A DNA stretch of 32,000 nucleotides from Longivirga aurantiaca (lineage in GTDB: Bacteria; Actinomycetota; Actinomycetes; S36-B12; CAIYMF01): assembly GCF_042660085.1 (NCBI RefSeq), contig NZ_JBHSTI010000008.1, positions 390,001-422,000 on the forward strand, in the 5' to 3' direction. Positions 8,867-31,591 of the stretch are shown here, piece by piece. Position 1 is the first letter of the stretch. Every line of letters starts with the position of its first letter. Below the pieces are notes generated by a model. It was given only the letters and a program-made list of their open reading frames with translations, had not been told where the DNA came from and did no database searches. The translations under genes were made by a program, and so were the position numbers.

Positions 8867-8939
8867 CCGATCGAGCGCCGGCACTCTCGTTCACGGGAAG
8901 GCGTGTCCGGCCCGTGCGGGCTCGAGGCGGCGTGGCGCG

Positions 8940-16119: not shown

Positions 16120-16137
16120 CGCTGCCCGCTGCGCTCG

Positions 16138-16716: not shown

Positions 16717-16915
16717 GCGGCCACGTCCCCTCGTCTGTCGGTGACCGGGACGCTACGGCACGGTGGACGTCGCCGCAGCGCGAGCATGATCGCCGAACGG
16801 CTCCGAGGTGAGACGGACCGGCACCGCCCTTCACCCGAACGGACGGGCTTCGCGACCGGCGGGCCCTAGCATCGGTGCATCGCAGCAGGTCCGCGGTCGT
16901 CGAGAGGGCAGCACC

Positions 16916-17296: not shown

Positions 17297-17325
17297 CATC
17301 GGCGTACCCGAGCCGGAGGTGCGCG

Positions 17326-17706: not shown

Positions 17707-17720
17707 CGAAGCCGCACCCC

Positions 17721-18533
17721 ATGCTGCCGGGCCGGCGCGGATACGGTGGGCGCGTGTCCGATGCCGAGGTCGCCGGTGGCGTGAAGTCGGTGGCGTCCGC
17801 GCTCGACGTGCTCGACTGCTTCGTGTCGGACGAGGAGCTCGGCGTCTCGGAGGTCGCCCGCCGGCTCGGCGTCGCCAAGAGCACCGCGCACCGCCTGCTG
17901 ACCACGCTCGTCTCGCGCGGCTTCGTCGAGCAGGACGCCGCGAGCGGCAAGTACCGCCTCGGCATCCACCTGTTCGAGCTCGGGCAGCTCGTGCTGCAGC
18001 GCAACGAGCTCCGACGCCGCTCGACGACGCTGCTCGAGGAGCTGCGCGAGCTCAGCGGCTGGACGGTGCACCTGTCGATCGCGCAGGGCGCCGACACGCT
18101 CTTCCTCGAGCGGCTCCCGACCCTGCGGGGGATGAAGGTCATGCGCGAGTTCCGACGGCGCTGGCCGCTGCACGCGACGTCGTCGGGCAAGGCCATCTGT
18201 GCCTACGACCCCGAGGCGGCGGCCGCCCGGATCGAGGCGGGCTTCCCGGCCTTCACCCCGCGCACGATCACGGGCGAGAGGGCGTTCGCGGCCGAGCTCG
18301 CGCGGGTGCGCTCCCGCGGGTACGCGACCTCGCGCGAGGAGCTGATGGACGACCTCGCGTCGGTGGCCGCACCGGTGCTCGACCTGCACGGTGTCGCGAT
18401 CGCGGCGATCTCGATCACCGGCTCGGTCTCCGAGCTCGCGGATGCCCGCGACCGCCAGGTGCGGCTCGTCACGGCGGCGGCGAAGCGGCTCTCGCAGGTG
18501 ATGCTCACGCCGGACGGCGCGGCGCCGCACTGA
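17721..18533 (+). CDS. IclR-family transcriptional regulator
   Basis: VKSVASALDVLDCFVSDEELGVSEVARRLGVAKSTAHRLLTTLVSRGFV is an IclR HTH. The C-terminal effector domain reads LHATSSGKAI...YATSREELMDDLASVAAPV. The start is ATG 17721 or GTG 17754. The 5' part of the track ORF overlaps the previous gene and was rejected. Confidence 0.85.
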   Translation: MLPGRRGYGGRVSDAEVAGGVKSVASALDVLDCFVSDEELGVSEVARRLGVAKSTAHRLLTTLVSRGFVEQDAASGKYRLGIHLFELGQLVLQRNELRRRSTTLLEELRELSGWTVHLSIAQGADTLFLERLPTLRGMKVMREFRRRWPLHATSSGKAICAYDPEAAAARIEAGFPAFTPRTITGERAFAAELARVRSRGYATSREELMDDLASVAAPVLDLHGVAIAAISITGSVSELADARDRQVRLVTAAAKRLSQVMLTPDGAAPH

Positions 18534-18557
18534 CGAGCGTTCCTCATCGCGGAACAA

Positions 18558-18598
18558 CGCTCCGCAGCCGCCCGCACGGCGTCATAGCGTGCGGAGCG
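18558..18598 (+). terminator. Imperfect hairpin downstream of the IclR gene
   Basis: cgctccgca (18558-18566) pairs with tgcggagcg (18590-18598). An inner cgcacg/cgtgcg pairing is possible. It starts 25 nt after the stop codon. It could instead be an operator in front of the aldehyde dehydrogenase gene. Confidence 0.35.
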
Positions 18599-18679
18599 TC
18601 CTGGTCCGGCGCGGGTCCCACCCGCTGCCGCACCGCTGCAACCGGCAGCCGCAGGGCGACGTCGAGAGGGATCACCGCC

Positions 18680-20119
18680 ATGGAGTTCTACGGCCACATC
18701 ATCGACGGCGTCGAGGTCGAGTCGCTCGACGGCGCCCGCATGGACAGCATCGACCCGTACACCCGCGAGCCGTGGGCGACCGTCGCGCTCGGCGGCCGCG
18801 CCGACGCCGCCCGCGCCGTCGCAGCCGCGCGGAAGGCCTTCGACGAGGGCCCGTGGCCGCGGATGGGCTATGAGAAGCGCCAGACGCTGATGCACCGCCT
18901 GGCCGACCTCATGCTCGAGAACGCCGAGGCGCTCGCCCTCGCCGACACCCGCGACATGGGCAAGCCCATCGCCCAGGCCCGCCACGACGTCGCGCGCTCG
19001 GCCTGGAACTTCCGGTTCTTCGCCGACCACGCCCGCCTCACCGCCGGCGAGAACTACCCGATGGACAGCGGCCACCACGCCTACAGCCGCTTCGGTCCGG
19101 CCGGCGTCGTCTCGGCCATCGCGCCGTGGAACTTCCCGCTGATGCTCGAGACGTGGAAGGTCGCGCCCGCCCTCGCGTGGGGCAACACCGTCGTCCTCAA
19201 GCCGGCCGAGGACACCCCGGTGTCGGCCGTCATCCTCGGCCGTCTCGCGATCGAGGCGGGCTTCCCGCCGGGCGTGCTCAACGTCGTGCAGGGCTATGGC
19301 CCCGACTCCGCGGGTGCCGAGCTCACCGAGAACGTCGACGTCGACCGCATCACCTTCACCGGCGAGTCCGGAACCGGTCGCATCATCGGCGGCGTCGCCG
19401 CGAAGCGCCTCTGCCCGGTGAGCCTCGAGCTGGGCGGCAAGGGCGCCAACATCGTGTTCGCCGACGCCGACCTCGACAACGCGGTCGACTGGTCGGTCCA
19501 GGCGATCTTCCGCAACGCCGGCCAGGTGTGCCTCGCCGGCAGCCGGCTCTACGTGCAGCGCGAGGTGTACGACGAGTTCCTCGAGCGCTTCGTCGCCGCC
19601 GCCGAGGCCATGCAGATCGGAGATCCCCAGGACGACGCGACGCAGTTCGGCCCCCTGGCGAGCGAGGAGCACTGGACGAAGGTCAGCGGCTACCTCGGCG
19701 GCATCGAGGCGGACGGCGGCAAGGTGCTGACCGGTGGCCACGGCGAGGGCTGGTTCGTGCGCCCGACGATCGTGGTCGATGCGCCTGCCGACGCGCGGGT
19801 CTGCACCGAGGAGATCTTCGGCCCGGTCGTCGTCGTGCACCCGTTCGACACCGAGGCCGAGGCGGTCCGTCTCGCGAACGACACCCGGTACGGCCTGAAC
19901 GCCATGCTCTTCACCGAGAACCTGAGCCGCGCGCACCGCGTCTCCGAGGCGCTCAAGGCCGGCACCGTGTGGGTGAACTGCTTCTTCATCCGCGACCTGC
20001 GCGCGCCGTTCGGCGGTGTCGGCGACTCCGGGGTCGGCCGCGAGGGCGGTGCCTTCAGCCGTGAGTTCTTCACCGAGCCGAAGGCCGTGGTCATGCAGAT
20101 CTCGCCCGACCGCGGGTAG
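18680..20119 (+). CDS. NAD(P)+-dependent aldehyde dehydrogenase (hydroxymuconic-semialdehyde dehydrogenase-like)
   Basis: 479 aa. Motifs: APWNFPL, VVLKPAEDTP, catalytic Glu in LELGGKG, catalytic Cys in NAGQVCLAGSR, and EEIFGPV. The C-terminal NCFFIRDLRAPFGG resembles the HpaE/XylG-type subgroup. Confidence 0.9.
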   Translation: MEFYGHIIDGVEVESLDGARMDSIDPYTREPWATVALGGRADAARAVAAARKAFDEGPWPRMGYEKRQTLMHRLADLMLENAEALALADTRDMGKPIAQARHDVARSAWNFRFFADHARLTAGENYPMDSGHHAYSRFGPAGVVSAIAPWNFPLMLETWKVAPALAWGNTVVLKPAEDTPVSAVILGRLAIEAGFPPGVLNVVQGYGPDSAGAELTENVDVDRITFTGESGTGRIIGGVAAKRLCPVSLELGGKGANIVFADADLDNAVDWSVQAIFRNAGQVCLAGSRLYVQREVYDEFLERFVAAAEAMQIGDPQDDATQFGPLASEEHWTKVSGYLGGIEADGGKVLTGGHGEGWFVRPTIVVDAPADARVCTEEIFGPVVVVHPFDTEAEAVRLANDTRYGLNAMLFTENLSRAHRVSEALKAGTVWVNCFFIRDLRAPFGGVGDSGVGREGGAFSREFFTEPKAVVMQISPDRG

Positions 20120-20143
20120 CCGCCAGCACCTGTCCGGGCATGG

Positions 20144-20178
20144 CAGAGGGCGCGCAGCCGTCGGCTGCGCGCCCTCTG
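20144..20178. terminator. Bidirectional terminator hairpin between convergent genes (16-bp perfect stem, 3-nt loop)
   Basis: cagagggcgcgcagcc gtc ggctgcgcgccctctg. It lies between the aldehyde dehydrogenase stop (20119) and the receiver gene stop (20199). Confidence 0.65.
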
Positions 20179-20198
20179 GCGCCGAGGTCCCGTTCGGT

Positions 20199-20594
20199 CT
20201 ACGAGGCGCTCTGCAGCGCCGGGCTGTTCTCGGCGAGCAGGCGCTCGATCCACTCGAGCAGGTTCAGGTGGTCGAACGGCTTGTTGAGGTAGAGGCTCGC
20301 GCCCGTCGTCCAGCCGGCCCATGTGGTGTCGTCGTCGCCGGCCGCCGTGAGCAGCACGACGGGCACGTCGCGCAGCAGGGCGTCGGAGCGGACCCGTACC
20401 AGCACGTCGATGCCGCTCATACCCGGCATCATGATGTCGAGCAGCACGAGATCGGGCCGCTGCGCGGCCATGGCCACGAGTGCGGATGGGCCGTCCTCGG
20501 CCTCTGCCACGTCGTAGTCCTCGAGCTCGAGGACGTCCCGGAGCAGGGATCGCACCGAGAACTCGTCGTCGACGATCAGGATCCTGCGCATCAT
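20199..20594 (-). CDS. Stand-alone response-regulator receiver (CheY-like, no output domain)
   Basis: 131 aa starting MMRRILIVDDEFSVR. It has the acidic pocket DDE, the phospho-acceptor Asp in LVLLDIMMPGMSG, a conserved T in VVLLTA and K in YLNKPF. The ATG at 20594 is preceded by GGAG, which overlaps the kinase stop (TAGGAGTCATG). Confidence 0.85.
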   Translation of the reverse strand: MMRRILIVDDEFSVRSLLRDVLELEDYDVAEAEDGPSALVAMAAQRPDLVLLDIMMPGMSGIDVLVRVRSDALLRDVPVVLLTAAGDDDTTWAGWTTGASLYLNKPFDHLNLLEWIERLLAENSPALQSAS

Positions 20595-20599
20595 GACTC

Positions 20600-22849
20600 C
20601 TAGGCGGTGCGGGCGAACGGGACGGACGGTGCGGACGCTGGTGCAGCCGCCATGGCCGTGGCTTCGGTGCGCGGCAGGCGGACGGTGAAGGTCGCGCCCT
20701 GGCCGGGCTGCGAGATGACGGTGAGGCTGCCGCCCATGGCGATGGCGAGCTCGCGGGCGATGTAGAGCCCGAGGCCGCTGCCGCTGGTGCGCATCGTCAT
20801 CGAGTCCTCGACGCGGTAGAACCGCTCGAAGACGCGCTCGACATCGCCGGCGACCAGGCCGCAGCCCTGGTCGGTCACGGTCACGACGGCGTGCGTGTCG
20901 CCGAACTCCGACTCCGGCACGCGGACGGTGATCGGCGTGCCCTCGGGCGAGTACTTCATCGCGTTGGAGAGCAGGTTCGACAGGATCTGCACCGAGCGCA
21001 CGGAGTCGCACCAGACCGGCACGGCGGTCTCGGGCTGCTCGACCACGAGCCGGCTCGCAATCGCCGGGAACGACTGTGTCGCGGCGGACACGATCGTGCG
21101 GAGGTCGTGGCCCTGCGGCGCGGTGGCGAGCTTGGAGCCGAGGGTGCCCGAGGCGCGCGAGGCCATGAGCAGGTCCTCGACGAGCCGGCCGAGGTGGTCG
21201 GCGCGGTCGGCGATGAGCTCGTACGCCGAACGCCGCTTCTCCGGGGTCATCGCGTCTCCGCGCGCGAGGAGGAGCTGCGCGTATCCCTTGATGGGCGTGA
21301 TCGGCGTACGCAGCTCGTGCGAGATCGTCGCGACGAAGTCGCTCTTGAGCCGGTCCGCGCGGGCCTGCGACGTGACGTCGTGGACGGTCAGGATCGCGAC
21401 CGGCTCGCCGTCCGCGTTGGCGCGGGCACGGACCACGGCGACGGCGATGTCGCGGGTCTCGCCGTCCGGGCGGGTGATGGTGAACGGCCTCGGCTCGGCT
21501 TCGGCCTGGCCCTGGCCCATCACGATGCCGTCGACGACGGCGGTCGCGATCACGGACGTGAGAGCGGTGGGGGCGTCGGCCATCGGGCCCATGGCGACGG
21601 ACTCGGTGACGCCGGTGATGCGCGCGAGGGCCGGGCTCCACAGCCGGACGCGACCGGTGCCGGTCAGCACGGCGATGCCGTCGGAGGCGTTCTCGACGAC
21701 GGCCTTGAGCTTGCTCGTCTCCTCGACGAGGGCGGCGTGACGCTCGGCGCTGCGGACGGCGCTGCAGAGGGAGGCGGCGACGGTGGTGAGCACGGCCTCG
21801 TCGGTCGCCTTGAGCGCCCACGGGTGCTTGGCGCCCGGCGTGTCGCCGAGGAGCAGGGCGCCGCGACGGCCGTCGCCGAGCTCGAGGCCGACCGACACGG
21901 CCGAGCCCCAGCCGTCGGGGAGGCGGGAGACCGGCACCGGCACGACGCCCTCGGATGCCGGGAAGGTGGAGGTGAGGTCGTCGTCGGCCGGCAGCAGCAC
22001 CTGCACCGCGCCGGCGCCGAACGCGGCGCGGATGGCGTCCGACGCGTCGGCGAGCAGCTCGGGCACCGGGCGCTCGGCGGTGAGGATGCCGGAGAGCGTG
22101 ACGAGCCAGCGGTTGCGCTCGCGCTCCTCCGCGCGCTGCGAGGTGGAGCGGTACGCGTACCAGAGGGCCATGGCCGGGAGCAGGGTGAACGGCAGGAGCC
22201 AGACCGACACGGGGACGATCGCGACGGCGACCGCACCCACGCCGATCGATCCGATGGTCATGAGGACCGACAGGCCCCAGACGTCGGCCGTGAAGGCGCG
22301 GAAGCTGATCCCCTCGGCGGCCTTGAGCACGGTGGCCAGGAGGAGGGTGTTGACGATCGTGAAGACCGTCATGGCCACGACGAGTGCGACGACGCCGCGG
22401 AACGAGAAGCGGTCGGCGCCGCCGGTGATGGCGAGGTAGGTGGTGACGGCCGCCACGGTCGAGGTCGCGTACGAGCCGAGGTTGAAGGCGACCTTCTTCG
22501 CCGGGATGCGCAGGGCAAGCTGCACGAGCGCGAGGCCGACGAGCGGTGCCACGACCGCCCACGCCGGGTCCAGCACGAGGATGCCGGCGACCGTGACGAT
22601 CTCGAAGAACGTCAGATCCTCCTTGCCGCCCCCGTGCATCAGCGGCACCGAGACGATCTCGGACACGGCCGCGGCGAGGGCGAACGCCATGATCGCGAGC
22701 GGGGCGTGCACGTCCGAGAACCCGGTCGGCTCTGCGAGCGCCGGGATGACGAGGGCGGCGAGCCCGAGGCTCACCGCTCCCGCGATGCACACGGCGCCCA
22801 CGACCGCAGGCACGTCGAGCCTGCGGCCGAGGGCGGTCGTGTTCGACAT
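20600..22849 (-). CDS. Sensor histidine kinase: ~8-TM N-terminal domain, GAF-like, PAS, HisKA, HATPase_c
   Basis: The ATG at 22849 (MSNTTALGRR) is in frame with the track ORF and gives 749 aa. Residues 1-233 are almost entirely hydrophobic helices with very short loops. The H-box is FVATISHELRTPITPIKGY, the N-box LSNLLSNAMKYSP, G1 DQGCGL and G2 GSGLGLYIAREL. The upstream 249 codons of the track ORF are a shadow of the protease repeat region. Confidence 0.85.
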   Translation of the reverse strand: MSNTTALGRRLDVPAVVGAVCIAGAVSLGLAALVIPALAEPTGFSDVHAPLAIMAFALAAAVSEIVSVPLMHGGGKEDLTFFEIVTVAGILVLDPAWAVVAPLVGLALVQLALRIPAKKVAFNLGSYATSTVAAVTTYLAITGGADRFSFRGVVALVVAMTVFTIVNTLLLATVLKAAEGISFRAFTADVWGLSVLMTIGSIGVGAVAVAIVPVSVWLLPFTLLPAMALWYAYRSTSQRAEERERNRWLVTLSGILTAERPVPELLADASDAIRAAFGAGAVQVLLPADDDLTSTFPASEGVVPVPVSRLPDGWGSAVSVGLELGDGRRGALLLGDTPGAKHPWALKATDEAVLTTVAASLCSAVRSAERHAALVEETSKLKAVVENASDGIAVLTGTGRVRLWSPALARITGVTESVAMGPMADAPTALTSVIATAVVDGIVMGQGQAEAEPRPFTITRPDGETRDIAVAVVRARANADGEPVAILTVHDVTSQARADRLKSDFVATISHELRTPITPIKGYAQLLLARGDAMTPEKRRSAYELIADRADHLGRLVEDLLMASRASGTLGSKLATAPQGHDLRTIVSAATQSFPAIASRLVVEQPETAVPVWCDSVRSVQILSNLLSNAMKYSPEGTPITVRVPESEFGDTHAVVTVTDQGCGLVAGDVERVFERFYRVEDSMTMRTSGSGLGLYIARELAIAMGGSLTVISQPGQGATFTVRLPRTEATAMAAAPASAPSVPFARTA

Positions 22850-22850
22850 G

Positions 22851-24866
22851 TCAGACGTCCCACGCGTCCACGGACCAGCGGTGCGCGGACCAGCCGTCCA
22901 CCGACCAGCGGTGCGCGGACCAGCGGTGCGCCGACCAGGCGTAGTCGCTCCAGCGGTGCGCCGACCAGCGGTGCGCCGACCAGGCCTGCTCGTTCCACGC
23001 ATCGGAGGCCCAGTCGTTCGAGCTCCAGCGGTGGGCGACCCAGGCGAACGCCAGCCAGTCCTCGGTGGACCAGCGGTGCGCGTCCCAGGCCTCGGTGGAC
23101 CAGCGGTGCGCGTCCCAGGCCTCGCTCGACCAGCGGTGCGCGCTCCAGTCCGAGCCGGACCAGCGGTGCGCTGCCCAGTCGGCGAAGGACCAGCGGTGCG
23201 CTGCCCAGTCGTCGGAGGACCAGCGGTGGGCGACGAACGCGTCGGTGGCCCAGTCGCGGGACTTCCACGACTCGGTCGACCAGCGGTGCGCCAGCGCCTC
23301 GATCGCCGCGAACTCCTCCTCGTCGGCGCCGGCGTTGGCCGACACGAGCGAGAGGGAGAACGCGGTGGCTGCCCAGCGGCGGGTCTGCTCGGAGAGCGTC
23401 GCCCAGATCGCTGCCACTGCCTCGAGGTCGCCTGCGGCCCAGGCGTCGGAGAACTGCTGCCAGGCGGCGGCGTCGTCCGGGCTGGGCCCGTACGAGTCGT
23501 CGGCCAGCCTCGCGATCGAGCCCTTGACCGTGACGATCCTGGCCGTGGGCGCGGCGGCGAGTGCAGCAGCCAGGTCGAGGGCGCCGTCACCGGCACCGTC
23601 GGCCTTCCTCAGGTTCTTCGGGTCGTACGCGGTCTTCGTGAGCAGCTTCTTCACGGTGTCCGGGGTGAGCGCGGAGCGCGTCCCGATGAGCACTGCCGCC
23701 GCGCCGGCCGTGATGGCCTCGCTCATCGACGTGCCGCTACCGGTGAAGTAGCCGTCCCCGACGCGCGAGGCGGGGTTCTCGACGTCGGCCGTGCTGCCCG
23801 CGGCGCGGGTGGACACGAGCGAGACGCCGGGAGCGACGAGGTCGGGCTTGCTGGCCCCGAACTCGGTCCCGCGTGCGGAGAAGGTGGCGACGGTGTCGTT
23901 ACCGCGTGCCGAGGTGCCGTGCTCGTCGAGAGCGCCCACGGTGATGAGCGTGGGGTCGGCGCCGGGGCTGGTGACGGTTCCGTCGGCCGGGCCGTCGTTC
24001 CCTGCGGAGACGACGACCGTGAGGCCCTTGGCCCACAGCCGGTCGAGGGCCCGCGAGAGCGGGTCGGCCGACGGCGGCAGCGGGTCGCCGGTCGAGAGCG
24101 CGAGGCTCACGACGCGGACGGACGGGTCGGCCTTCGCGGCGTCGGCCACGGCCTGCAGGCCCGCGAGCACGCGGGAGAGCGAGGTCGAGCCGTCCGAGGT
24201 GGCGACCTGGACGTCGAGGATGCGGGCGCTGGGCGCGACGCCGGTGTAGGTGCCGCCCGAGGACGACCCGTCACCTGCGACCAGACCAGCCATGAACGTG
24301 CCGTGGCCCAGGCCGTCGCCAGCAGCTCCGCCGCTGACGTTGACGTGGGTGAGGCGCCCCGCGAGGTCGGCGACATCGGCGACGCCGGTGTCCACGACCG
24401 CGACGGTCACGCCGGAGCCGGTCGCCGTGCTGGGTGCGCCGATCGTGGCGCGATGGGTCGCGCCCCTCACGTCGCTCGCAGCCGTGGCGGTCGGTGCACC
24501 GGTCGTCTGCATCGGGACGTCGGCGACACGCACGGCCCCGTCCGGCGGGGTGACCCCGGCGGGCAGGGAGACGAGCAGCGCGTCGGCGACGTCGTAGACC
24601 GCGAGGACCTCGCCACCACGAGAGGTGACCCAGGCCGCTGCGGCATCGGGGGAGAGCGCCGATCCCTGCACGGAGAGCAGGGTGGGGGCGCCCGTGGCGG
24701 TCACCGCACTGGTTGCGGGAGCGCCGAGGGCGAAGGTCATCGCAGATGCTGCGAGGACTGCGCCGAGAGCGAGGCCGGAACGCTGTCCGACCCGGCCACG
24801 CATGAGCCGAGCTGCGGTGGTGCCACCGGCGGTGCCGGTGATCGTCACCCGCGACGTGCTGGCCAT
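22851..24866 (-). CDS. Secreted S8 (subtilisin-like) serine peptidase with C-terminal Trp-pentad repeat domain
   Basis: AGGAGG lies 5 nt upstream of the ATG at 24866. A signal-like segment (RGRVGQRSGLALGAVLAASAMTFALGAPA) and an I9-like propeptide are present. Catalytic residues: Asp in VAVVDTGV, His in GHGTFMAGLVAG, oxyanion Asn in SAGNDG, Ser in GSGTSMSEAITAG. The C-terminal 146 aa are repeats. The TGA stop is at 22851-22853, 1 nt before the kinase ATG. Confidence 0.85.
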   Translation of the reverse strand: MASTSRVTITGTAGGTTAARLMRGRVGQRSGLALGAVLAASAMTFALGAPATSAVTATGAPTLLSVQGSALSPDAAAAWVTSRGGEVLAVYDVADALLVSLPAGVTPPDGAVRVADVPMQTTGAPTATAASDVRGATHRATIGAPSTATGSGVTVAVVDTGVADVADLAGRLTHVNVSGGAAGDGLGHGTFMAGLVAGDGSSSGGTYTGVAPSARILDVQVATSDGSTSLSRVLAGLQAVADAAKADPSVRVVSLALSTGDPLPPSADPLSRALDRLWAKGLTVVVSAGNDGPADGTVTSPGADPTLITVGALDEHGTSARGNDTVATFSARGTEFGASKPDLVAPGVSLVSTRAAGSTADVENPASRVGDGYFTGSGTSMSEAITAGAAAVLIGTRSALTPDTVKKLLTKTAYDPKNLRKADGAGDGALDLAAALAAAPTARIVTVKGSIARLADDSYGPSPDDAAAWQQFSDAWAAGDLEAVAAIWATLSEQTRRWAATAFSLSLVSANAGADEEEFAAIEALAHRWSTESWKSRDWATDAFVAHRWSSDDWAAHRWSFADWAAHRWSGSDWSAHRWSSEAWDAHRWSTEAWDAHRWSTEDWLAFAWVAHRWSSNDWASDAWNEQAWSAHRWSAHRWSDYAWSAHRWSAHRWSVDGWSAHRWSVDAWDV
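22854..23291 (-). repeat. In-frame coding tandem repeat: 29 consecutive 15-bp (pentad) units, 13 of them encoding AHRWS; partly organised as 30-bp units
   Basis: The plus-strand motif ccagcggtg recurs 13 times. From 23070 to 23220 it has strict 30-bp phasing. Exact 30-bp duplicates lie at 23061-23090 and 23091-23120. A 23-bp exact duplicate lies at 23158-23180 and 23188-23210. Confidence 0.95.
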
Positions 24867-25117
24867 GTCGGCCTCCTGACAGAGGAACCCAGGGATGTAT
24901 CGGCACACCGGCAGCCGACATTCATACGCCGTTGGGGTGACTGGCGGCCGCTCACCGATTCGTGCTCAGGGGCCCGTTGAAGAAGGTCATCGAACGCGGG
25001 GGCATGCGGTGCGCACCGCCTTCCGGGTGAGAAGCGGTCGCCCGCGGGCACGTTCGGTGAGGCTGCCCTGGGTGCGCCCGCAGGCATCTGGCGCACCGCG
25101 CACGGTTGGATGGGCGC

Positions 25118-25468
25118 ATGCCCGACGAGCTGCCCCCGTGCCCCGAGTGCTCCAGCGCGTACACCTACGCGATGGGGGCGCTGCTCGTATGCCCCGAGTG
25201 CGCGCACGAGTGGTCGCCGTCCGGCGGATCCGAGGACGGCGGCGGCCGGGTGATCCGGGACGCCGTCGGCAACGTGCTCGCCGACGGTGACGACGTCACG
25301 ATCGTGAAGGACCTCAAGGTCAAGGGTGCCGGCGGCGGATCGATCAAGGTCGGCACCAAGGTGCGCGGCATCCGTCTGATCGACGGCGTCGGCGACCACG
25401 ACATCGACGCGAAGGTCGACGGCTTCGGCCCCATGCAGCTGAAGTCGAGCGTCGTGAAGAAGGTCTGA
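25118..25468 (+). CDS. yjdM: Zinc-ribbon protein YjdM/PhnA
   Basis: MPDELPPCPECSSAYTYAMGALLVCPECAHEW...VTIVKDLKVKG...IKVGTKVRGIRLIDGVGDHDIDAKVDGFGPMQLKSSVVKK aligns along its whole length with E. coli YjdM as I remember it. The ATG at 25118 is preferred over the track TTG at 25106. Confidence 0.85.
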   Translation: MPDELPPCPECSSAYTYAMGALLVCPECAHEWSPSGGSEDGGGRVIRDAVGNVLADGDDVTIVKDLKVKGAGGGSIKVGTKVRGIRLIDGVGDHDIDAKVDGFGPMQLKSSVVKKV

Positions 25469-25632
25469 TCGGCCGCTGCCCGCACGCGATCGCTCTCCGG
25501 GGCCACGGCCGCGCACTGCGACGTGACGTGGGGCGTCCCGCCTTCACGGGCCGCCCAGCTGTTCCCGGCCTTGGGTGGAGGAAGACGTGCGCTGCGGCGT
25601 CGCTCGCCCGTCCTCGGATCGAGGTGGTGGCC

Positions 25633-25938
25633 ATGAGCCACACGACGCGAACCGCTGGGCCCCGGCGTGAACAGGTACAGCTCGCCGTAGGCGCCGTGCT
25701 CCTCGGCGCCGGCGTCGTCCTCCTCCTGCTCGGTCGCACGACCGCGGCGGACGTGCTCCTCCTGCTCGCGACGGCGCAGGGCTTCGTGCTCTCGCTGGTC
25801 GCGACCGTCCGCGCCGTACGGCACCGCCAGCTGAGCGTCGACGTCATCGCGCTGCTCGCTCTCGTCGGGGCCCTGGCCGTGGGCGAGCACCTCGCAGCAG
25901 CCGTCGTCGCGCTCATGCTCGCCACCGGGCAGCTGCTC
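25633..25938 (+). pseudogene. N-terminal remnant (~102 codons) of a heavy-metal P1B-type ATPase
   Basis: This GC3-rich frame encodes two or three TM helices, and VRAVRHRQLSVDVIALLALVGALAVGEHLAAAVVALMLATGQLL. That segment matches the conserved region of P1B ATPases (R-G-x-[LV]-G-[IM]-D-x-L... GE...A..V..[LM]...G..LE) just before the actuator domain. Similarity ends after GQLL. No actuator, DKTGT or nucleotide-binding regions follow. The frame stays open only as a shadow of trpB2. Confidence 0.5.
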
Positions 25939-26005
25939 TGGCGATCCCCTGGCCGCCGGGTGAATGCGGGCGCCGTCACCCGCCGGCGGCCGGTCGGCGG
26001 ACATA

Positions 26006-26053
26006 CGACGCGAGAGGCCGCCCGGCGGGTGCGCCGGACGGCCTCTCGTCGTG
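26006..26053 (-). terminator. Long GC-rich hairpin downstream of the TrpB2 gene
   Basis: acgac-gc-gagaggccg-c-ccggcg ggtg cgccgg-a-cggcctctc-gtcgt, about 20 paired positions with two small bulges. It is separated from the trpB2 stop (26062-26064) by a G8 run (26054-26061). Confidence 0.55.
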
Positions 26054-26061
26054 GGGGGGGG

Positions 26062-27438
26062 TCAGCCGACCGGCACCGGCGGGATGGTCGAGAGGCCGGC
26101 GGCGAAGCGTGCCTCGCTGACCTCCTCGTCGACCATGCGCCCGTTGAGGTAGTCGTCGTACGCCGCGAGGTCGAAGTGCCCGTGGCCGCAGAGCGCGGTG
26201 AGGATGACGGTCTCCTCGCCGGTCTCCTTCGCCTTGAGCGCCTCGCGGATCGCGACGGCGAGCGCGTGCGTCGGCTCGGGCGCGGGGACGATGCCCTCGG
26301 TGCGTGCGAACTGCACGGCGGCCGAGAAGCACTCGGTCTGCGGGATCGCCTGGGCCTCCATCATCCCGAGCTCGTACACGTGCGAGATGAGCGGCGACAT
26401 GCCGTGGTAGCGCAGGCCGCCCGCGTGGATCGGGTCCGGGATGAAGTCGTGCCCGAGGGTGTGCATCTTCATGAGCGGCGTCATGCCGGCGCTGTCGCCG
26501 AAGTCGTACGCGTAGACGCCGTGCGTGAGCGACGGGCAGGACGCCGGCTCTGCGGCGATGATCCTGGGCGAGATCCGGCCCGCGAGCTTCTCGCGCAGGA
26601 ACGGGAACGACAGGCCGCCGAAGTTGGAGCCGCCGCCGGTGCAGCCGACGATGTGGGTCGGGGTGTCGCCCGCCTTCGCCATCTGCAGCAGCGCCTCCTC
26701 GCCGATGATCGTCTGGTGCAGGAGCACGTGGTTGAGCACGCTGCCGAGCGCGTAGCGGGTGTCGGGGTCCGACGCCGCCACCTCGACGGCCTCGGAGATC
26801 GCGATGCCGAGCGAGCCCGAGAAGTTCGCCGGGTCCTCGAGGAACTTGCGACCCGCCGCGGTGAGGTTGGAGGGGGAGCGGTGAACGGTGCCGCCGAACG
26901 CCTCGATCATGAGACGGCGGTAGGGCTTGCTGTCGTACGACGAGCCCACCTGCCACACCTCGCACTCGAGGCCGTAGAGCGCGGCCGCGAACGACAGCGC
27001 GGTGCCCCACTGCCCGGCGCCGGTCTCCGTCGTGAGCTTCTTCACGCCGGCCTTCTTGTTGTAGTAGGCCTGCGGCACCGCGGTGTTCGGCTTGTGCGAG
27101 CCGGCCGGCGAGACGCCCTCGTACTTGTAGTAGATGCGTGCGGGGGTGCCGAGCGCCTCCTCGAGCCGGTGCGCGCGGAAGAGCGGAGACGGCCTCCACT
27201 GGCGGTACACGTCGAGGACGCCGCCCGGGATCTCGACGTACCTGTCCTGCGTGACCTCTTGCATGATGAGGTCCATCGGGAACAGGGGCGCGAAGTCCTC
27301 CGGGCCTGCGGGCTGCAGCGTTCCGGGGTGCAGGGCCGGCGGCGGCGGGGTCGGCAGATCGGCCACGAGGTTGTACCAGGTGGTCGGCATCTCGTCCTCG
27401 TCGAGCGTGTACTTGTGCCGGCGCACCGTGTCGTCCAT
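26062..27438 (-). CDS. trpB2: TrpB-like PLP-dependent enzyme (tryptophan synthase beta chain type 2)
   Basis: The ATG at 27438 (MDDTVRRHKYTLDEDEMPTTWYN) gives 458 aa. The PLP-lysine block is GVSPAGSHKPNTAVPQAYY. Other blocks: TETGAGQWGTALS, GCTGGGSNFGG. The long N-terminal extension and length are typical of the TrpB2 clade. Confidence 0.85.
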   Translation of the reverse strand: MDDTVRRHKYTLDEDEMPTTWYNLVADLPTPPPPALHPGTLQPAGPEDFAPLFPMDLIMQEVTQDRYVEIPGGVLDVYRQWRPSPLFRAHRLEEALGTPARIYYKYEGVSPAGSHKPNTAVPQAYYNKKAGVKKLTTETGAGQWGTALSFAAALYGLECEVWQVGSSYDSKPYRRLMIEAFGGTVHRSPSNLTAAGRKFLEDPANFSGSLGIAISEAVEVAASDPDTRYALGSVLNHVLLHQTIIGEEALLQMAKAGDTPTHIVGCTGGGSNFGGLSFPFLREKLAGRISPRIIAAEPASCPSLTHGVYAYDFGDSAGMTPLMKMHTLGHDFIPDPIHAGGLRYHGMSPLISHVYELGMMEAQAIPQTECFSAAVQFARTEGIVPAPEPTHALAVAIREALKAKETGEETVILTALCGHGHFDLAAYDDYLNGRMVDEEVSEARFAAGLSTIPPVPVG

Positions 27439-27493
27439 CGACCTCACCCATCCACGTGTGCGGGGCGCTGGTCGCCCCGCGGTGAGGCCGAAC

Positions 27494-27850
27494 CTAGTGC
27501 GAGTCGCGCGAGTGCGCCCGGCGGTTCGACGAGGTGTCCCTGGCTGTTCCGTCGTGGGGCGGCAGCACGATCCGTGCGACGCCGGAGTCGAGGTCGACGG
27601 TGCTGCGCGGAGGGGCGGCGTCGCCGTCCTCGTCGCGCTTGATCTCCAGGAACTCGTCGTGCTCCCGCTTGTGCCGGGTGGAGGGAGCGAGCGCGAGGCC
27701 GAGCACGTCGAAGCCCGCCGCCGCGACCTTCGGTCGGCCCTTCTCCCCGGTCCGTGCGTTGCGGCGTCGGGTGGCGACGACGTCGACCACCGCGACGACA
27801 ATCAGCAGCACGACCAGCGCAGGCAGGGTCATGGCCCAGAGGTTCCCCAT
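27494..27850 (-). CDS. Small N-terminally membrane-anchored protein (DUF6191-like, tentative)
   Basis: The ATG at 27850 overlaps the upstream gene stop (TGATG). The 118-aa product starts MGNLWAMTLPALVVLLIVVAVVDVVATRRR (TM helix). It continues with FDVLGLALAPSTRHKREHDEFLEIKRDEDGDAAPPRSTVDLDSGVARI, which resembles the small actinobacterial DUF6191 family as I recall it. Confidence 0.5.
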   Translation of the reverse strand: MGNLWAMTLPALVVLLIVVAVVDVVATRRRNARTGEKGRPKVAAAGFDVLGLALAPSTRHKREHDEFLEIKRDEDGDAAPPRSTVDLDSGVARIVLPPHDGTARDTSSNRRAHSRDSH

Positions 27851-28149
27851 CAGGTCGCCCCCAGCCGCGCGAGCACCTCGTGGATCTGGTGCGCGAGCTC
27901 GACGTCGAGCTGCGTCGTCCCGCCCTCGCTGTGCGTCGACAGCGTGATCCGCAGCGTGCGCCACCGGATATCGATGTCGGGGTGGTGGTCCATGTGCTCG
28001 GCGAGCTGGGCGATCTCGTCGACCCCACGGATCGCGGTGAGGAAGTCGGGCAGCTCGTAGTCGCGGTGGAGCGCCGCGCCGTCGCCCACCCACCCCGGCA
28101 GGGCGGTCAGCTGGCGCGCGATCTCCTCGTCGTCGAGCAGCCTGGCCAT
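27850..28149 (-). CDS. 4a-hydroxytetrahydrobiopterin (pterin-4a-carbinolamine) dehydratase family protein
   Basis: MARLLDDEEIARQLTALPGWVGDG...EHMDHHPDIDIRWRTLRITLSTHSEGGTTQLDVELA contains the PCD signature (HHPD...W...L.TH). The ATG at 28149 gives 99 aa; alternative GTG at 28185. Confidence 0.8.
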   Translation of the reverse strand: MARLLDDEEIARQLTALPGWVGDGAALHRDYELPDFLTAIRGVDEIAQLAEHMDHHPDIDIRWRTLRITLSTHSEGGTTQLDVELAHQIHEVLARLGAT

Positions 28150-28223
28150 GCCTCCACGGTCGCACCCGGGGACGCCCGAGTCCACCGTCGATCGCGTCAG
28201 TCCGCGTCTGGCAGAGTCGCGGC

Positions 28224-29492
28224 ATGGACGACGCCCCCACCCACGTGACGGCCGACGGACGACGGGTGGTCGTGGCCGCTGCGATCGAGAGCCGCGGGCG
28301 CCTGCTCGCCGCTCGGCGCTCGCGCCCGGAGTCGCTCGCGGGGGGATGGGAGCTGCCGGGCGGCAAGGTGGAGCCCGGGGAGGACCCGGCCCGCGCGCTC
28401 GTTCGCGAGCTGCTCGAGGAGCTCGGCGTCGACATCGAGGTGGTCGGCGCGGTGCACGGCCCGGACGGCGGCGACTGGCCGCTCGACGACCGGTCGGTCC
28501 TGCGCGTGCTGCGTGCGCGGATCGACCGGGGCGATCCCGAGGCCGGCGTCGCCCACGACGAGGTGCGCTGGCTCGCGCCGCGCGAGCTCGGCTCGGTTCC
28601 CTGGCTCGAGCCCGATGTGGCCCCGGCCGCAGCCGCTGCCCTGCGGATCGACACGTGGGTCGACTTCCCCGCCGGCGCGCTCGAGGGCGAGGGTGTCGTG
28701 GTGCGCTCGGACGTCCAGGAGGACGGACGCGTCGCGGTCGTCGTCGACCGGACTCCGTTCCACCCCCTCGACCACAGCTGGCCCGACCAGCCGGGCGACA
28801 CCGGCCTCGTCGCGGGAGCCCACGTCGTCGACTCCGTCATGGGCGCGATCGACGACGAGGGCGCGCTGCTGCTCGGCGACGCGGTCGGCGTACGCAGGGG
28901 GGACCCGAGCCGCACGTGGGTGGTGGCGCACCTGCTGGGGGCCGGCTCGGTCGCGCCCGGCGCCGGCGACGTGGTGCCGCTCGCGGTGGACCCGGCCCGG
29001 CGGGCGGCGTACTCCCGCGGGCACTCGGCCTGCCACCTCGCGGCGCTGGCGCTCAACGAGGCCAGCGCCCGGTTCTGGACCAAGGAGCCGCCGCGGCGCG
29101 ACTCGCGCGGCTTCCCGTTCCTGGACCAGATCGCGATCCAGGTGTCGCGGATCGAGCCCGACGCGGCGTACGACGCCTACCGGTGCGGCAAGTCGCTGCG
29201 CAAGGCCGGCTTCGACTCGGCGTCGTTCCTCGAGGCGCTGGACGACGTCGCGGGGGAGGCCCACGTGCTGCTCGACGCCTGGGTGGCCACCGGCGCGGTG
29301 AGCCGGCTCGAGACCGACGGCGACCCCACGCTGTCGGCCCGGCGGCGCTGGGTCTGTGACGTGCCCGGAGGCCCCGCGGTGATCCCCTGCGGCGGCACGC
29401 ACGTGTCCGACCTCTCAGCGCTCGGCACGGTCCGTGTCTCGTACGCCCCCACCCCCGACGGCTTCGAGCAACGCACCGACGTCACCCGATAA
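28224..29492 (+). CDS. Fusion protein: N-terminal NUDIX hydrolase + C-terminal AlaX-like (alanyl/threonyl-tRNA synthetase editing-type, HxxxH/CxxxH) metal hydrolase domain
   Basis: 422 aa. The Nudix box is GGKVEPGEDPARALVRELLEELGV (GX5EX7REUXEEXGU). Downstream, VVVDRTPFHPLDHSWPDQPGDTG resembles the AlaRS/AlaX barrel start. The zinc motifs HSACH (HxxxH) and CGGTH (CxxxH) are present. Confidence 0.75.
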   Translation: MDDAPTHVTADGRRVVVAAAIESRGRLLAARRSRPESLAGGWELPGGKVEPGEDPARALVRELLEELGVDIEVVGAVHGPDGGDWPLDDRSVLRVLRARIDRGDPEAGVAHDEVRWLAPRELGSVPWLEPDVAPAAAAALRIDTWVDFPAGALEGEGVVVRSDVQEDGRVAVVVDRTPFHPLDHSWPDQPGDTGLVAGAHVVDSVMGAIDDEGALLLGDAVGVRRGDPSRTWVVAHLLGAGSVAPGAGDVVPLAVDPARRAAYSRGHSACHLAALALNEASARFWTKEPPRRDSRGFPFLDQIAIQVSRIEPDAAYDAYRCGKSLRKAGFDSASFLEALDDVAGEAHVLLDAWVATGAVSRLETDGDPTLSARRRWVCDVPGGPAVIPCGGTHVSDLSALGTVRVSYAPTPDGFEQRTDVTR

Positions 29493-29701
29493 GGACAGAG
29501 CCAGCCCTCCAGGGGCGTCTTCCGCCCTTGTCCCAGCGCGTCGTCGTCGACCATTGGCCGGAGCTCGGCTGGGAGTCTCCGGACAGAATCGGCCCCTCAC
29601 GGGCGTGTTGTGCCCTGAGCGGGGGACGTCGGGCGGTCGGGGGAGGGGCGGTTCGCCGGTAGACTGGGCGCGATTCCCCGTCTTCGACCCCGAGGTCACC
29701 C

Positions 29702-31591
<1,890 letters not shown>

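What the first reader, a model, noticed from the sequence alone, without database searches (positions are those of the whole stretch)
22854..23291. Uninterrupted 29-pentad Trp-periodic repeat (13x AHRWS) at the C-terminus of a secreted S8 protease
Reading the last 146 aa in register gives: AHRWS TESWK SRDWA TDAFV AHRWS SDDWA AHRWS FADWA AHRWS GSDWS AHRWS SEAWD AHRWS TEAWD AHRWS TEDWL AFAWV AHRWS SNDWA SDAWN EQAWS AHRWS AHRWS DYAWS AHRWS AHRWS VDGWS AHRWS VDAWD V. Position 4 of every pentad is aromatic (28 Trp, 1 Phe) and the register never breaks. An invariant basic unit (AHRWS) mostly alternates with a variable acidic unit (xxD/AWx). The protein ends here with no TM helix and no LPXTG-type sorting signal. 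The pattern does not fit the repeat classes I know. Canonical pentapeptide repeats are A(D/N)LXX with a small residue at i-2. Choline-binding repeats are about 20 aa. GW, LysM, SLH and PKD modules are much longer. Possible roles, all inference: a novel solenoid or beta-roll-like fold; a cell-envelope or membrane-interface anchor, since Arg/Trp-rich sequences are strongly interfacial; or a poly-unit domain cleaved by the attached protease into short Trp peptides.
Basis: partly seen in the sequence, partly recalled or inferred. Interest (0 to 1): 0.85.

Follow-up and report, generated by a model that had tools for sequence, protein, structure and literature searches.

The report
Tryptophan-every-fifth-residue tail on secreted protease
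A secreted subtilisin-type protease ends in 29 five-residue units, each with a tryptophan at the same position; more than 200 related actinobacterial proteases examined carry such an unannotated tail, and the gene nearly always sits directly upstream of a membrane signalling gene, so it probably marks an undescribed protease-sensor module.

Summary
On the minus strand, 22854-23291 encodes residues 526-671 of a 671-aa S8 protease: 29 unbroken xxxWx pentads (28 Trp, 1 Phe; 13 AHRWS). GC3 is 97% in this frame.

The tail is not a one-off. All but one of the best 120 homologues (41-95% identity, Ca. Nanopelagicales and other Actinomycetota) carry 14-38 such pentads at the C-terminus. The exception is a frameshifted copy. 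A second set (Acidimicrobiia, Micromonosporaceae, Frankiales) carries GSSWS/GNSWT-type tails. Only Trp and its small neighbours are universal; Arg, His and Asp are lineage-specific.

No Pfam, NCBIfam or PDB sequence match covers the tail. Two AlphaFold runs gave no confident fold (pLDDT 27-43), so a solenoid is not supported.

The protease gene is followed on the same strand by a polytopic membrane sensor. Here that is a histidine kinase plus receiver; elsewhere the homologous membrane domain is fused to GGDEF(-EAL). Searching with the sensor alone recovered a Trp-pentad ORF upstream in 10 of 10 assessable loci.

Best reading (inference, about 0.4): a non-globular multivalent Trp "sticker" tail, closest in pattern to the NANOG tryptophan repeat, that holds the protease at the cell surface beside its partner sensor. 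The main rival is a cleavable peptide-signal array.

The parts
22854..23291 (-). Trp-pentad tail, residues 526-671. It has 29 xxxWx units: 13 AHRWS units interleaved with acidic xx(D/A)Wx units, plus a positionally conserved xxDWL-AFAWV centre.
   Evidence: Conserved in orthologues.
22851..22853 (-). Stop codon (TGA) of the protease. The ATG of the next gene begins one base later.
23292..23522 (-). Helical linker domain, residues about 449-525, with invariant W and F residues (W469, F472, W476, W488, W498). It lies between the catalytic domain and the tail.
   Evidence: AlphaFold2 helices 449-531 with pLDDT about 85. Invariant columns of alignment A1.
23589..24419 (-). Peptidase_S8 catalytic domain, residues about 150-426. 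The Asp (DTG), His (HGT), Asn and Ser (GTSMS) motifs are conserved.
   Evidence: Pfam PF00082 E 9e-40. A1 invariant columns H188, N290 and S380, and near-invariant D159. Foldseek matches to subtilisins.
24504..24686 (-). Subtilisin-type N-terminal propeptide, a beta-alpha-beta fold at residues about 61-121.
   Evidence: AlphaFold2 secondary structure with pLDDT 85-95. The best PDB matches are unprocessed pro-subtilisins: 3afg, 3whi, 2e1p.
24702..24866 (-). Start codon and N-terminal signal-like region. It has a basic n-region, the hydrophobic stretch GLALGAVLAASAMTFALG, and then APATSA.
   Evidence: Hydrophobic segment 30-51. AlphaFold2 shows residues 1-55 as disordered. The orthologue L001 starts at the same Met.
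22070..22849 (-). Polytopic membrane sensor domain of the downstream histidine kinase, residues 1-260, with near-continuous hydrophobic segments over residues 10-230. It has no Pfam family. It is homologous to the N-termini of the GGDEF(-EAL) proteins that follow Trp-tail proteases in other lineages.
20600..22069 (-). Cytoplasmic part of the same histidine kinase: PAS, HisKA and HATPase_c domains.
   Evidence: Pfam hits. NCBIfam gives only sub-threshold PnpS/PhoR/WalK-like matches.
20199..20597 (-). Stand-alone receiver-domain response regulator with no output domain. It starts 2-5 nt after the kinase stop codon.
   Evidence: Pfam Response_reg E 1e-28. Translation.

Best explanation
The tail is the defining C-terminal appendage of a large, uncharacterised family of secreted subtilases of Actinomycetota. 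It is an array of 15-40 five-residue units. The selected features are a Trp at a fixed position, small residues around it (G/A/S before, S/T/A after) and location at the chain terminus. The Arg/His and Asp/Glu of this particular lineage are a local embellishment. The tail is most likely not a globular domain. It is more likely an extended, multivalent aromatic 'sticker' array, closest in pattern to the NANOG tryptophan repeat, where W every fifth residue drives graded self-association. Proposed mechanism (inferred, not shown): after Sec export and removal of the propeptide, the many weak Trp contacts keep the active protease associated with the cell envelope, with other copies of itself, or with both. 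This would replace the C-terminal TM anchor used by the nearest named relatives, the mycosins. It would also place the enzyme next to the polytopic membrane sensor encoded immediately downstream, so that protease and sensor work as one extracytoplasmic sensing or feedback module. The module's output is a histidine kinase plus receiver here and c-di-GMP turnover in other lineages. Shown: the repeat exists, is translated and is under protein-level selection; it is family-wide; no fold is predicted; the gene is tightly linked to the sensor. Inferred: stickiness or retention, and a physical or functional interaction with the sensor.
For: The repeat and its frame are confirmed. It is family-wide: 119 of the best 120 full-length homologues carry 14-38 pentads, with a median of 3 residues after the last pentad. 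In a second set, 108 of 118 more distant S8 proteins (Acidimicrobiia, Frankiales, Micromonosporaceae including the cultured Spirilliplanes yamanashiensis) carry at least 8 pentads. In an exhaustive phmmer search with the tail, 79 of 149 listed representatives carry an S8 domain of 29-76% identity. Position profile: W 96-98% at position 4, G/A at position 1, S/T/A at positions 3 and 5, position 2 free; median net charge is about 0-3 per 100 aa. Selection acts on the protein: ARRWS units in L001 use varied synonymous codons, and positional orthology of the variable units is kept. Tail dN/dS is 0.46. No fold is predicted: AlphaFold2 pLDDT is about 27 for the tail in the full-length run with 110 sequences and 43 (pTM 0.16) for the tail alone, while the S8 core scores above 90. 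No TM segment is present. Linkage to a sensor: HK plus RR follows in the window (ATG 1 nt after the stop) and in L001, L002/L003 and L004. A TM-(GAF)-GGDEF(-EAL) protein follows in L005, L006, L007 and L009. The sensor N-domains are homologous: phmmer/HMM scores of 23-29 bits, and six invariant columns in alignment A4. Reciprocal test: 10 of 10 assessable loci retrieved with the sensor domain alone have a Trp-pentad ORF ending just upstream on the same strand. Analogue: in the NANOG WR every fifth residue is Trp, dimerisation scales with Trp number, and the region is disordered, prion-like and gel-forming (PMC5446312, PMC9106587). An archaeal (Thermoplasmatota) S8 carries similar pentads at the other terminus of the mature enzyme, which fits a terminal appendage whose position is flexible.
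Against: No experiment or localisation datum exists for any member. A failed AlphaFold2 prediction does not prove disorder, because a fold absent from the training data would look the same. A disordered Trp-rich tail on a broad-specificity subtilase should be easily self-cleaved, which favours either a folded state or the cleavable-array rival. The binding target is unknown and cannot be the same polymer everywhere, since the lineages range from Actinomycetota to a wall-less archaeon. The similarity to NANOG is one of pattern, not homology, and NANOG acts in the nucleus. Gene adjacency does not show a physical interaction. One context (L008) has a different, CvnA-like kinase downstream, and one (L010) has an HK with a different membrane domain.
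Confidence: 0.4

Rival explanations
1. Cleavable signal array. The tail is a tandem pro-peptide that the attached S8 domain, or a neighbouring copy, cuts after Trp into many copies of a short Trp peptide such as (S)AHRW(S). The polytopic sensor encoded downstream detects that peptide. This would be a self-contained protease, pro-signal and receptor module.
For: One invariant unit repeats 13 times, separated by variable acidic spacers. The unit sequence is lineage-specific, and all constant units differ together between close relatives: AHRWS here versus ARRWS in L001, with positional orthology retained. This is what a ligand-specificity switch would look like. Linkage to a polytopic sensor with short loops is strict and runs in both directions. 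The tail is always at a free terminus. From general knowledge: subtilisins favour large hydrophobic P1 residues, Bacillus Phr pentapeptides are released from precursor C-termini by the S8 proteases subtilisin, Epr and Vpr, and the S8 enzyme Kex2 processes tandem-repeat pheromone and RiPP precursors.
Against: The Trp register is kept through the 'spacer' units too, which a simple spacer would not need. Many relatives have 15-41 near-identical units with no spacers. Positionally conserved unique units (xxDWL-AFAWV, EQAWS) suggest a defined architecture. No transporter, modifying enzyme or import system lies nearby. No peptide has been observed.
Confidence: 0.2
2. Trp-cored beta-solenoid. The pentads form a divergent pentapeptide-repeat-like or otherwise novel beta-helix that serves as a rigid stalk or interaction surface.
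For: The period of five is exact over 29 units. In the wider family the unit reads x-[S/T/N]-W-[S/T]-G, which parallels the canonical [STAV][DN][LF][STR][G] with W at the central position. One relative (GANWT units) reaches the Pfam Pentapeptide threshold (25.1 versus 20.2 bits), and 5 of 119 tail-search hits match Pentapeptide_4. Coordinated identity of units would suit residue ladders.
Against: This tail has no Pentapeptide family hit at E<=1. The i-2 position, which must be small and buried in the Rfr fold, is H/R or D/E here and is essentially unconstrained family-wide. AlphaFold2 usually predicts canonical pentapeptide-repeat helices with confidence (general experience, not tested here), yet it gives pLDDT 27-43 and low-confidence helices. 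There is no fixed super-period: 10, 15 and irregular periods are seen in different lineages. There is no capping element after the last unit.
Confidence: 0.15
3. Electrostatic/interfacial anchor. Arg/Trp units bind membrane phosphates or anionic wall polymers.
For: R/H-R-W units resemble Arg/Trp membrane-active peptides (general knowledge). There is no other anchor. The nearest named relatives, the mycosins, are membrane-anchored (general knowledge).
Against: The net charge of this tail is -5 without His (15 basic, 20 acidic, 13 His), and the summed Wimley-White interfacial energy is only -3.5 kcal/mol, or +6.7 if His is protonated. Basic residues are absent from most of the GSSWS/GNSWT-type tails, so charge cannot be the conserved principle.
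Confidence: 0.1
4. No protein-level function. The array is an expanding 15-nt tandem repeat tolerated at a C-terminus, or it acts at the translation level, with 28 UGG codons making expression of the coupled downstream kinase depend on Trp supply.
For: DNA tandem repeats are present. Unit number varies from 14 to 41. The kinase ATG lies 1 nt after the stop in this window.
Against: The tail is retained across S8 domains down to about 30% identity. Units carry synonymous variation under a constant protein sequence. dN/dS is below 1. Spacing to the sensor gene is 27-270 nt in other lineages, so tight translational coupling is not general.
Confidence: 0.05

Closest known systems
NANOG tryptophan repeat (WR) domain
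   Same: Trp falls at every fifth residue with mostly small or polar spacers. The region is low in complexity, has no stable monomer fold, and lies near the C-terminus. In NANOG the number of Trp residues sets the strength of self-association and of partner binding, and the region forms gels and beta-rich assemblies (PMC5446312, PMC9106587).
   Different: There is no homology. NANOG is a eukaryotic nuclear transcription factor with about 8-10 units. This is an extracytoplasmic bacterial tail with 29 units and alternating basic and acidic units. Self-association has not been tested here.
Pentapeptide repeat proteins (Pfam Pentapeptide PF00805 and Pentapeptide_4 PF13599; right-handed quadrilateral beta-helix)
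   Same: The period is five residues, with a hydrophobic or aromatic residue at a fixed position and small residues at i+1 and i+2. A few distant relatives of this tail score on these models.
   Different: This tail gives no hit. Trp replaces Leu/Phe. The buried i-2 position is charged or unconstrained. AlphaFold2 predicts no beta-helix.
Mycosins (type VII secretion-associated S8 proteases, TIGR03921)
   Same: This is the best-scoring named S8 subfamily for the catalytic domain (132 bits). Both are actinobacterial exported subtilases retained at the envelope by a C-terminal element.
   Different: The score is far below the 278.75-bit cutoff. There is no C-terminal TM helix and there are no ESX genes nearby. 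The Trp tail sits where the mycosin anchor would be.
Aromatic-rich non-covalent cell-surface binding repeats of Gram-positive bacteria (choline-binding repeats, GW modules, WxL, LGFP)
   Same: These are tandem, Trp-containing C-terminal modules that hold secreted enzymes on the envelope without covalent anchoring (general knowledge).
   Different: Their units are 20-80 aa and fold into defined structures. None of their Pfam models matches. The five-residue unit here is far shorter.
Protease-plus-membrane-signalling-protein gene pairs such as LapG-LapD, and S8-processed peptide signals (Bacillus Phr pentapeptides; Kex2-processed tandem precursors)
   Same: An exported protease is encoded beside a membrane GGDEF/EAL or kinase protein. 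S8 enzymes release short peptides, including pentapeptides, from precursor termini and from tandem arrays (general knowledge).
   Different: LapG is a cysteine protease and LapD has a large periplasmic domain. Phr peptides act on cytoplasmic receptors after import. No case is known to me in which the tandem array is fused to the protease itself.

Membership tests
Peptidase S8 (subtilase) | Significant match to the S8 profile | tested here: met
   PF00082 E 9.1e-40, 137 bits against a cutoff of 21.8.
Peptidase S8 (subtilase) | Asp-His-Ser catalytic triad and oxyanion Asn | tested here: met
   D159 (DTG) is near-invariant, and H188, N290 and S380 (GTSMS) are invariant among 110 homologues.
Peptidase S8 (subtilase) | Subtilisin fold with an N-terminal propeptide | tested here: met
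   AlphaFold2 core pLDDT above 90. Foldseek top hits are pro-Tk-SP 3afg (E 4e-28) and pro-subtilisins.
T7SS mycosin (TIGR03921) | Score above the curated equivalog cutoff | tested here: not met
   132.2 bits against a cutoff of 278.75.
T7SS mycosin (TIGR03921) | C-terminal transmembrane anchor | tested here: not met
   No hydrophobic segment occurs after residue 105, and the tail's maximum KD19 is -0.18.
T7SS mycosin (TIGR03921) | ESX/type VII genes in the neighbourhood | tested here: not met
   The neighbours are HK, RR, aldehyde dehydrogenase, IclR, PhnA, a PLP enzyme, NUDIX and BipA.
Pentapeptide repeat family | Match to the Pentapeptide, Pentapeptide_3 or Pentapeptide_4 profiles | tested here: not met
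   No hit at E<=1 for the tail or the whole protein. Only a few distant relatives hit.
Pentapeptide repeat family | Small buried residue (A/S/T/C/V) at i-2 relative to the central hydrophobic residue | tested here: not met
   With W at position i, i-2 is H in 13 units and D/E/others in the rest. Family-wide this position is R 52% or unconstrained.
Pentapeptide repeat family | Right-handed quadrilateral beta-helix | tested here: inconclusive
   AlphaFold2 gives no beta-helix, but confidence is too low (pLDDT 27-43) to exclude one.
NANOG-type tryptophan repeat (functional class, not a homologous family) | Trp at every fifth residue over at least 8 units | tested here: met
   28 W and 1 F in 29 consecutive pentads.
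NANOG-type tryptophan repeat (functional class, not a homologous family) | Trp-dependent self-association, and disorder in the monomer | not testable with these tools
   Only indirect evidence: no confident fold from AlphaFold2. Biophysical measurement is needed.
Known Gram-positive surface-binding modules (CW_binding_1, GW, WxL, LysM, SLH, LGFP) and sortase substrates | Profile match, or an LPXTG motif followed by a TM helix and a basic tail | tested here: not met
   No Pfam or NCBIfam hit. The sequence ends ...VDAWDV with no LPXTG or TM segment.
Tandem-core peptide precursor (pheromone/RiPP type) | Identical core units repeated in one precursor | tested here: met
   13 AHRWS units, and up to 38 identical units in relatives.
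Tandem-core peptide precursor (pheromone/RiPP type) | Release of the units as free peptides; dedicated modification or export genes nearby | tested here: inconclusive
   Peptide release is not testable with these tools. No modification or export genes were found in the window or in ten related loci.

The most novel reading that the evidence does not exclude
The protease, its Trp-pentad tail and the downstream polytopic sensor form a previously undescribed, self-contained extracellular signalling module of Actinomycetota. In it the tail is the tethered or self-released ligand, with lineage-specific units acting as 'pherotypes'. An unannotated MASE-like membrane domain reads that ligand out through either a two-component kinase or c-di-GMP turnover.
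Probability: 0.22. Interest if true: 0.9.

Novelty: new variant of a known kind. Interest (0 to 1): 0.7.

Why it matters
Subtilases are among the best-studied secreted enzymes. Yet here a large clade (939 hits at E<=1e-20 in one search, spread over abundant freshwater and soil Actinomycetota) carries a conserved terminal module that no family database describes and that structure prediction cannot model.

If the tail is a retention or self-assembly device, it would show how planktonic, streamlined bacteria keep costly exoenzymes from diffusing away.

If it is a ligand for the adjacent sensor, it would define a new class of bacterial cell-surface signalling. It would also give a function to an unannotated membrane sensor domain that is shared by histidine kinases and c-di-GMP enzymes.

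Either way, it offers a natural bacterial counterpart to the NANOG tryptophan repeat for studying how periodic Trp drives assembly.

Tried and rejected
- Literature search for 'AHRWS' returned only author initials.
- Searches for tryptophan-rich repeats combined with subtilisin and Actinobacteria, and for subtilisin combined with GGDEF, found nothing relevant.
- The word-indexed homologue search with the tail alone found one fragment, P0001, whose N-terminus differs from the protease. It sits on a 754-nt contig and was not pursued.
- The PDB sequence search gave only a chance beta-galactosidase hit at E 0.19.
- The sole tail-less orthologue, P0139, turned out to be a frameshift. Its APLGRRxLG tail is the same DNA read in another frame.
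- Many non-S8 tail-search hits are probably convergent low-complexity repeats rather than homologues, so their E-values were not used as evidence of homology. Examples are a eukaryotic adhesion GPCR with 93 GQVWN units, and CVEWQ, EVKWS and GMEWN arrays.
- A biarylitide-like His-x-Trp cross-link idea was dropped because the His is Arg in close orthologues.
- A seven-sequence sensor alignment was too divergent for the locus search, so a three-sequence one was used instead. The reciprocal test therefore covers only the HK-type clade.
- My first choice of neighbouring ORFs was mostly spurious high-GC frames. They were re-picked by GC3.
- Promoter, terminator and Rfam scans of 19.5-25.6 kb found nothing.
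- Cluster look-ups gave almost no taxon names.
Full report
**Observation**

The finding lies on the minus strand. The ORF at 22851-24908 most likely starts at the ATG at 24866 (MASTSR...), where the orthologue in L001 also starts. That gives 671 aa. Its last 146 residues (22854-23291) read as 29 consecutive pentads plus a terminal Val. Position 4 is Trp 28 times and Phe once, AHRWS occurs 13 times, and there is no register break. Tandem Repeats Finder reports 15-, 30-, 45- and 90-nt periods at the DNA level.

The window is 72% GC and full of long spurious ORFs on both strands, so the frame had to be checked. GC3 is 97% in the repeat and 91% over the gene. The same protein pattern is preserved in hundreds of homologues.

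**The protein**

Pfam places a Peptidase_S8 domain at residues about 150-426 (E 9e-40). The triad and oxyanion residues are invariant or near-invariant among 110 homologues. AlphaFold2 with that alignment models a subtilisin core at pLDDT above 90, preceded by a beta-alpha-beta propeptide. Foldseek's best PDB matches are unprocessed pro-subtilisins (3afg, 3whi, 2e1p).

The N-terminus has a basic region followed by a hydrophobic segment (residues 30-51). Nothing after residue 105 could span a membrane, and the tail's maximum 19-residue hydropathy is -0.18. There is no LPXTG motif. The best named subfamily is the T7SS mycosin, but at 132 bits against a cutoff of 279, and no ESX genes lie nearby. 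Between the catalytic domain and the tail lies a helical segment (residues about 449-525, pLDDT about 85) with invariant Trp and Phe residues.

**Is the tail a known family?**

Pfam and NCBIfam give nothing at E<=1 for the tail. A PDB sequence search gives one chance hit.

Two AlphaFold2 runs gave no confident fold. The full-length run gave pLDDT about 27 across residues 538-671. The tail alone, with a 40-sequence alignment, gave mean pLDDT 43 and pTM 0.16, with low-confidence helices and no beta-helix.

The canonical pentapeptide-repeat rule needs a small buried residue two positions before the central hydrophobic one. Here that position is His, Asp or Glu, and family-wide it is Arg or unconstrained. 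A few distant relatives with units such as GANWT do reach the Pentapeptide threshold. A remote relationship or convergence with that fold therefore cannot be excluded, but this tail fails the membership test.

**How widespread is it?**

Three searches were run.

- **Full-length search.** It returned 939 proteins at E<=1e-20. Of the best 120 (41-95% identity, named only 'S8 family serine peptidase' or 'AprX', mostly Ca. Nanopelagicales MAGs), all but one end in 14-38 Trp pentads, typically 0-3 residues before the stop. The exception, P0139, is a frameshifted copy whose tail is the same DNA read in another frame.
- **Exhaustive phmmer search with the tail.** It found 267 proteins at E<=1e-3, and 79 of the 149 representatives listed carry an S8 domain of 29-76% identity.
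- **Second homologue search, seeded with a distant member (P0012).** It found 118 further S8 proteins from Acidimicrobiia, Frankiales, Mycobacteriales and Micromonosporaceae (including the cultured Spirilliplanes yamanashiensis and Rhizomonospora bruguierae). Of these, 108 carry at least 8 pentads of the type GSSWS, GNSWT, GASWS or ARTWS.

The position profile across both sets is small (G/A/S), then any residue, then S/T/R/A, then W (96-98%), then S/T/A. Trp and its small neighbours are therefore universal.

Some non-S8 hits are probably independent inventions, for example a eukaryotic adhesion GPCR with 93 GQVWN units. An archaeal (Thermoplasmatota) S8 places similar pentads between the propeptide and the catalytic domain, which is the N-terminus of the mature enzyme.

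**Evolution of the array**

The orthologue in L001 (84% identity) has ARRWS wherever the window has AHRWS. The unique units keep their positions: FADWA/FADFA, xxDWL-AFAWV, EQAWS, and even the AGC serine codon of unit 18. The constant units therefore change together while array architecture is retained.

In L001 the ARRWS units use several synonymous codons for Ala, Arg and Ser. The identity of the units is thus maintained at the protein level, not only by recent DNA homogenisation. Between the two genes, dN/dS is 0.23 for the S8 core, 0.34 for the helical linker and 0.46 for the tail. The tail is constrained overall, but its variable units evolve quickly.

**Genomic context: the main new result**

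In the window the protease stop (TGA, 22851-22853) is followed one base later by the ATG of a 749-aa histidine kinase. The first about 230 residues of that kinase are almost continuously hydrophobic, indicating a polytopic protein with short loops. PAS, HisKA and HATPase_c domains follow, and a stand-alone receiver gene lies 2-5 nt downstream. None of these passes any NCBIfam equivalog cutoff.

The same protease-kinase-receiver order recurs in L001 and in orthologues of 47-50% identity whose other flanks are unrelated (L002/L003, L004).

In the more distant Trp-tail proteases the next gene is instead a membrane (GAF-)GGDEF(-EAL) protein (L005, L006, L007, L009). The N-terminal membrane domains of these proteins are homologous to that of the kinase. 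The evidence is phmmer/HMM scores of 23-29 bits for L007 and L009, shared motifs, and six invariant columns (E83, P95, G105, R114, F122, N123) in a seven-sequence alignment that includes L005 and L006. Those E-values were computed against a handful of sequences, so I rate this homology as good but not overwhelming. The domain has no Pfam family; the best match is MASE9 at E 0.11.

Two contexts differ. L008 has a CvnA-like NIT/HATPase protein with conservon genes, and L010 has a kinase with another membrane domain.

As a reciprocal test, I searched metagenome contigs with the sensor domain alone. This gave 11 loci. All 10 with enough upstream sequence have an ORF of 7-24 Trp pentads ending about 90-250 nt before the sensor match on the same strand. 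That test covers the kinase-type clade only.

**Interpretation**

The established facts are as follows.

- The tail is a translated, selected terminal Trp-pentad array.
- It is the hallmark of a large subtilase family.
- It lacks any predicted fold.
- Its gene is coupled to a membrane sensor domain whose output module varies.

[quoted passage not shown] There, dimerisation and partner binding scale with Trp number, and the region behaves as a disordered, prion-like, gel-forming domain (PMC5446312, PMC9106587).

By analogy, and given the absence of any other anchor, I think the most likely role is a multivalent aromatic sticker. It would retain the mature protease at the cell surface, in self-assemblies, or both, beside its partner sensor (confidence about 0.4). 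Many carriers are planktonic freshwater or marine lineages. For such cells, loss of free exoenzymes by diffusion is costly (inference).

The main weakness is that an exposed, Trp-rich, unstructured tail on a subtilase should be a good substrate for that same enzyme. This keeps the cleavable-signal-array rival alive (about 0.2). Lineage-specific units changing in concert, together with a polytopic sensor next door, is what a ligand-receptor pair would look like. Against it, the register-keeping 'spacers' and the positionally conserved unique units argue for a physical, array-level constraint.

A Trp-cored solenoid (about 0.15) remains possible, because a failed prediction is weak evidence. The Arg/Trp electrostatic anchor (about 0.1) does not generalise: the net charge is -5, the interfacial energy is -3.5 kcal/mol, and most relatives have uncharged tails. 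A purely DNA- or translation-level explanation (about 0.05) conflicts with the depth of conservation and with the variable spacing to the sensor gene.

**Novelty and verdict**

No profile database or paper I could search describes this tail, the sensor domain or their pairing. The catalytic part is an ordinary subtilase. I classify the finding as a new variant of a known kind: a subtilase with an undescribed terminal repeat module. The evidence does not exclude a categorically new reading, a protease, tethered ligand and sensor signalling module (probability about 0.2). Interest is 0.7. The feature is real, widespread, unannotated and directly testable, but its function remains inferred.

Noticed in passing
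window 20600-22849 (-), especially 22070-22849; also L002 7945-10116, L004 8015-10420, L005 about 7900-9803, L006 7725-10238, L007 7437-9773, L009 6821-8662: An unannotated polytopic membrane sensor domain is shared by histidine kinases and by (GAF-)GGDEF(-EAL) proteins. It has invariant E83, P95, G105, R114, F122 and N123, with motifs LTFxEI and FN(L/V)G. It always lies directly downstream of a Trp-tail S8 gene. No Pfam family covers it (MASE9 only at E 0.11).
   Followed up: partly
window 22854-23291 compared with L001 about 9610-10040: All constant units differ in concert between two 84%-identical orthologues (AHRWS versus ARRWS, CAC versus CGN), while the variable units and even individual serine codons keep positional orthology. 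This points to very short-tract conversion or to parallel selected change. The mechanism is unexplained.
   Followed up: partly
P0139 (674 aa, on a 2.03 Mb contig): This is the only orthologue without a Trp tail. It carries the same repeat DNA read in another frame (APLGRRxLG...), so it is a frameshift: either an assembly error or a pseudogene.
   Followed up: partly
P0001 (171 aa, on a 754-nt ENA contig): This fragment has a tail 87% identical to the window's, but a different N-terminal 80 aa with no protease. It is possibly a chimeric or mis-called short contig.
   Followed up: no
P0029 (MAG Thermoplasmatota archaeon, MHB8585340.1), residues 104-213: This archaeal S8 protease has 22 Trp pentads (SSQWS, ASSWD) inserted between the propeptide and the catalytic domain rather than at the C-terminus. 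It suggests a recurrent association between subtilases and Trp pentads.
   Followed up: no
P0005 (1154 aa), P0008 (1226 aa), P0045, P0027: Long Trp-pentad arrays occur in unrelated proteins. One is a eukaryotic adhesion GPCR (GPS plus 7tm_2) with 93 GQVWN/GLVWN units. One is a protein with 39 ANxWN units and InlB B-repeat-like domains. Others have 36 CVEWQ units and 27 PDQWA units. These are probably convergent.
   Followed up: no
window 23292-23522 (-), residues about 449-525: A conserved helical linker domain with invariant W469, F472, W476, W488 and W498 precedes the tail in the Nanopelagicales-type proteins. The GSSWS-type relatives instead have a different linker with SRGSxH and GExDIFG motifs.
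   Followed up: no
L008 6800-10522 (Rhizomonospora bruguierae): Here the Trp-tail S8 gene (only 8 pentads) is followed by a conservon-like set (a NIT/HATPase CvnA-like protein, Roadblock/LC7 and DUF742) instead of the usual sensor.
   Followed up: no
window 20016-24980, both strands: Very long spurious ORFs overlap the real genes in other frames and on the opposite strand (for example 22440-24980 +, 846 aa; 20891-23527 +, 878 aa). The kinase ORF also extends falsely upstream through the repeat (to 23596) as an Arg/Pro/Gly-rich frame. These are typical 72% GC artefacts that could mislead gene callers, as happened in L005, where the called sensor gene overlaps the protease tail.
   Followed up: yes
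window 14499-20119 and 25061-31591: The flanking genes are housekeeping or unrelated and are not conserved with the module: YchF GTPase, an acyltransferase, a cupin, an IclR regulator, aldehyde dehydrogenase, PhnA/YjdM, a PLP-dependent enzyme, a NUDIX hydrolase and BipA/TypA.
   Followed up: partly
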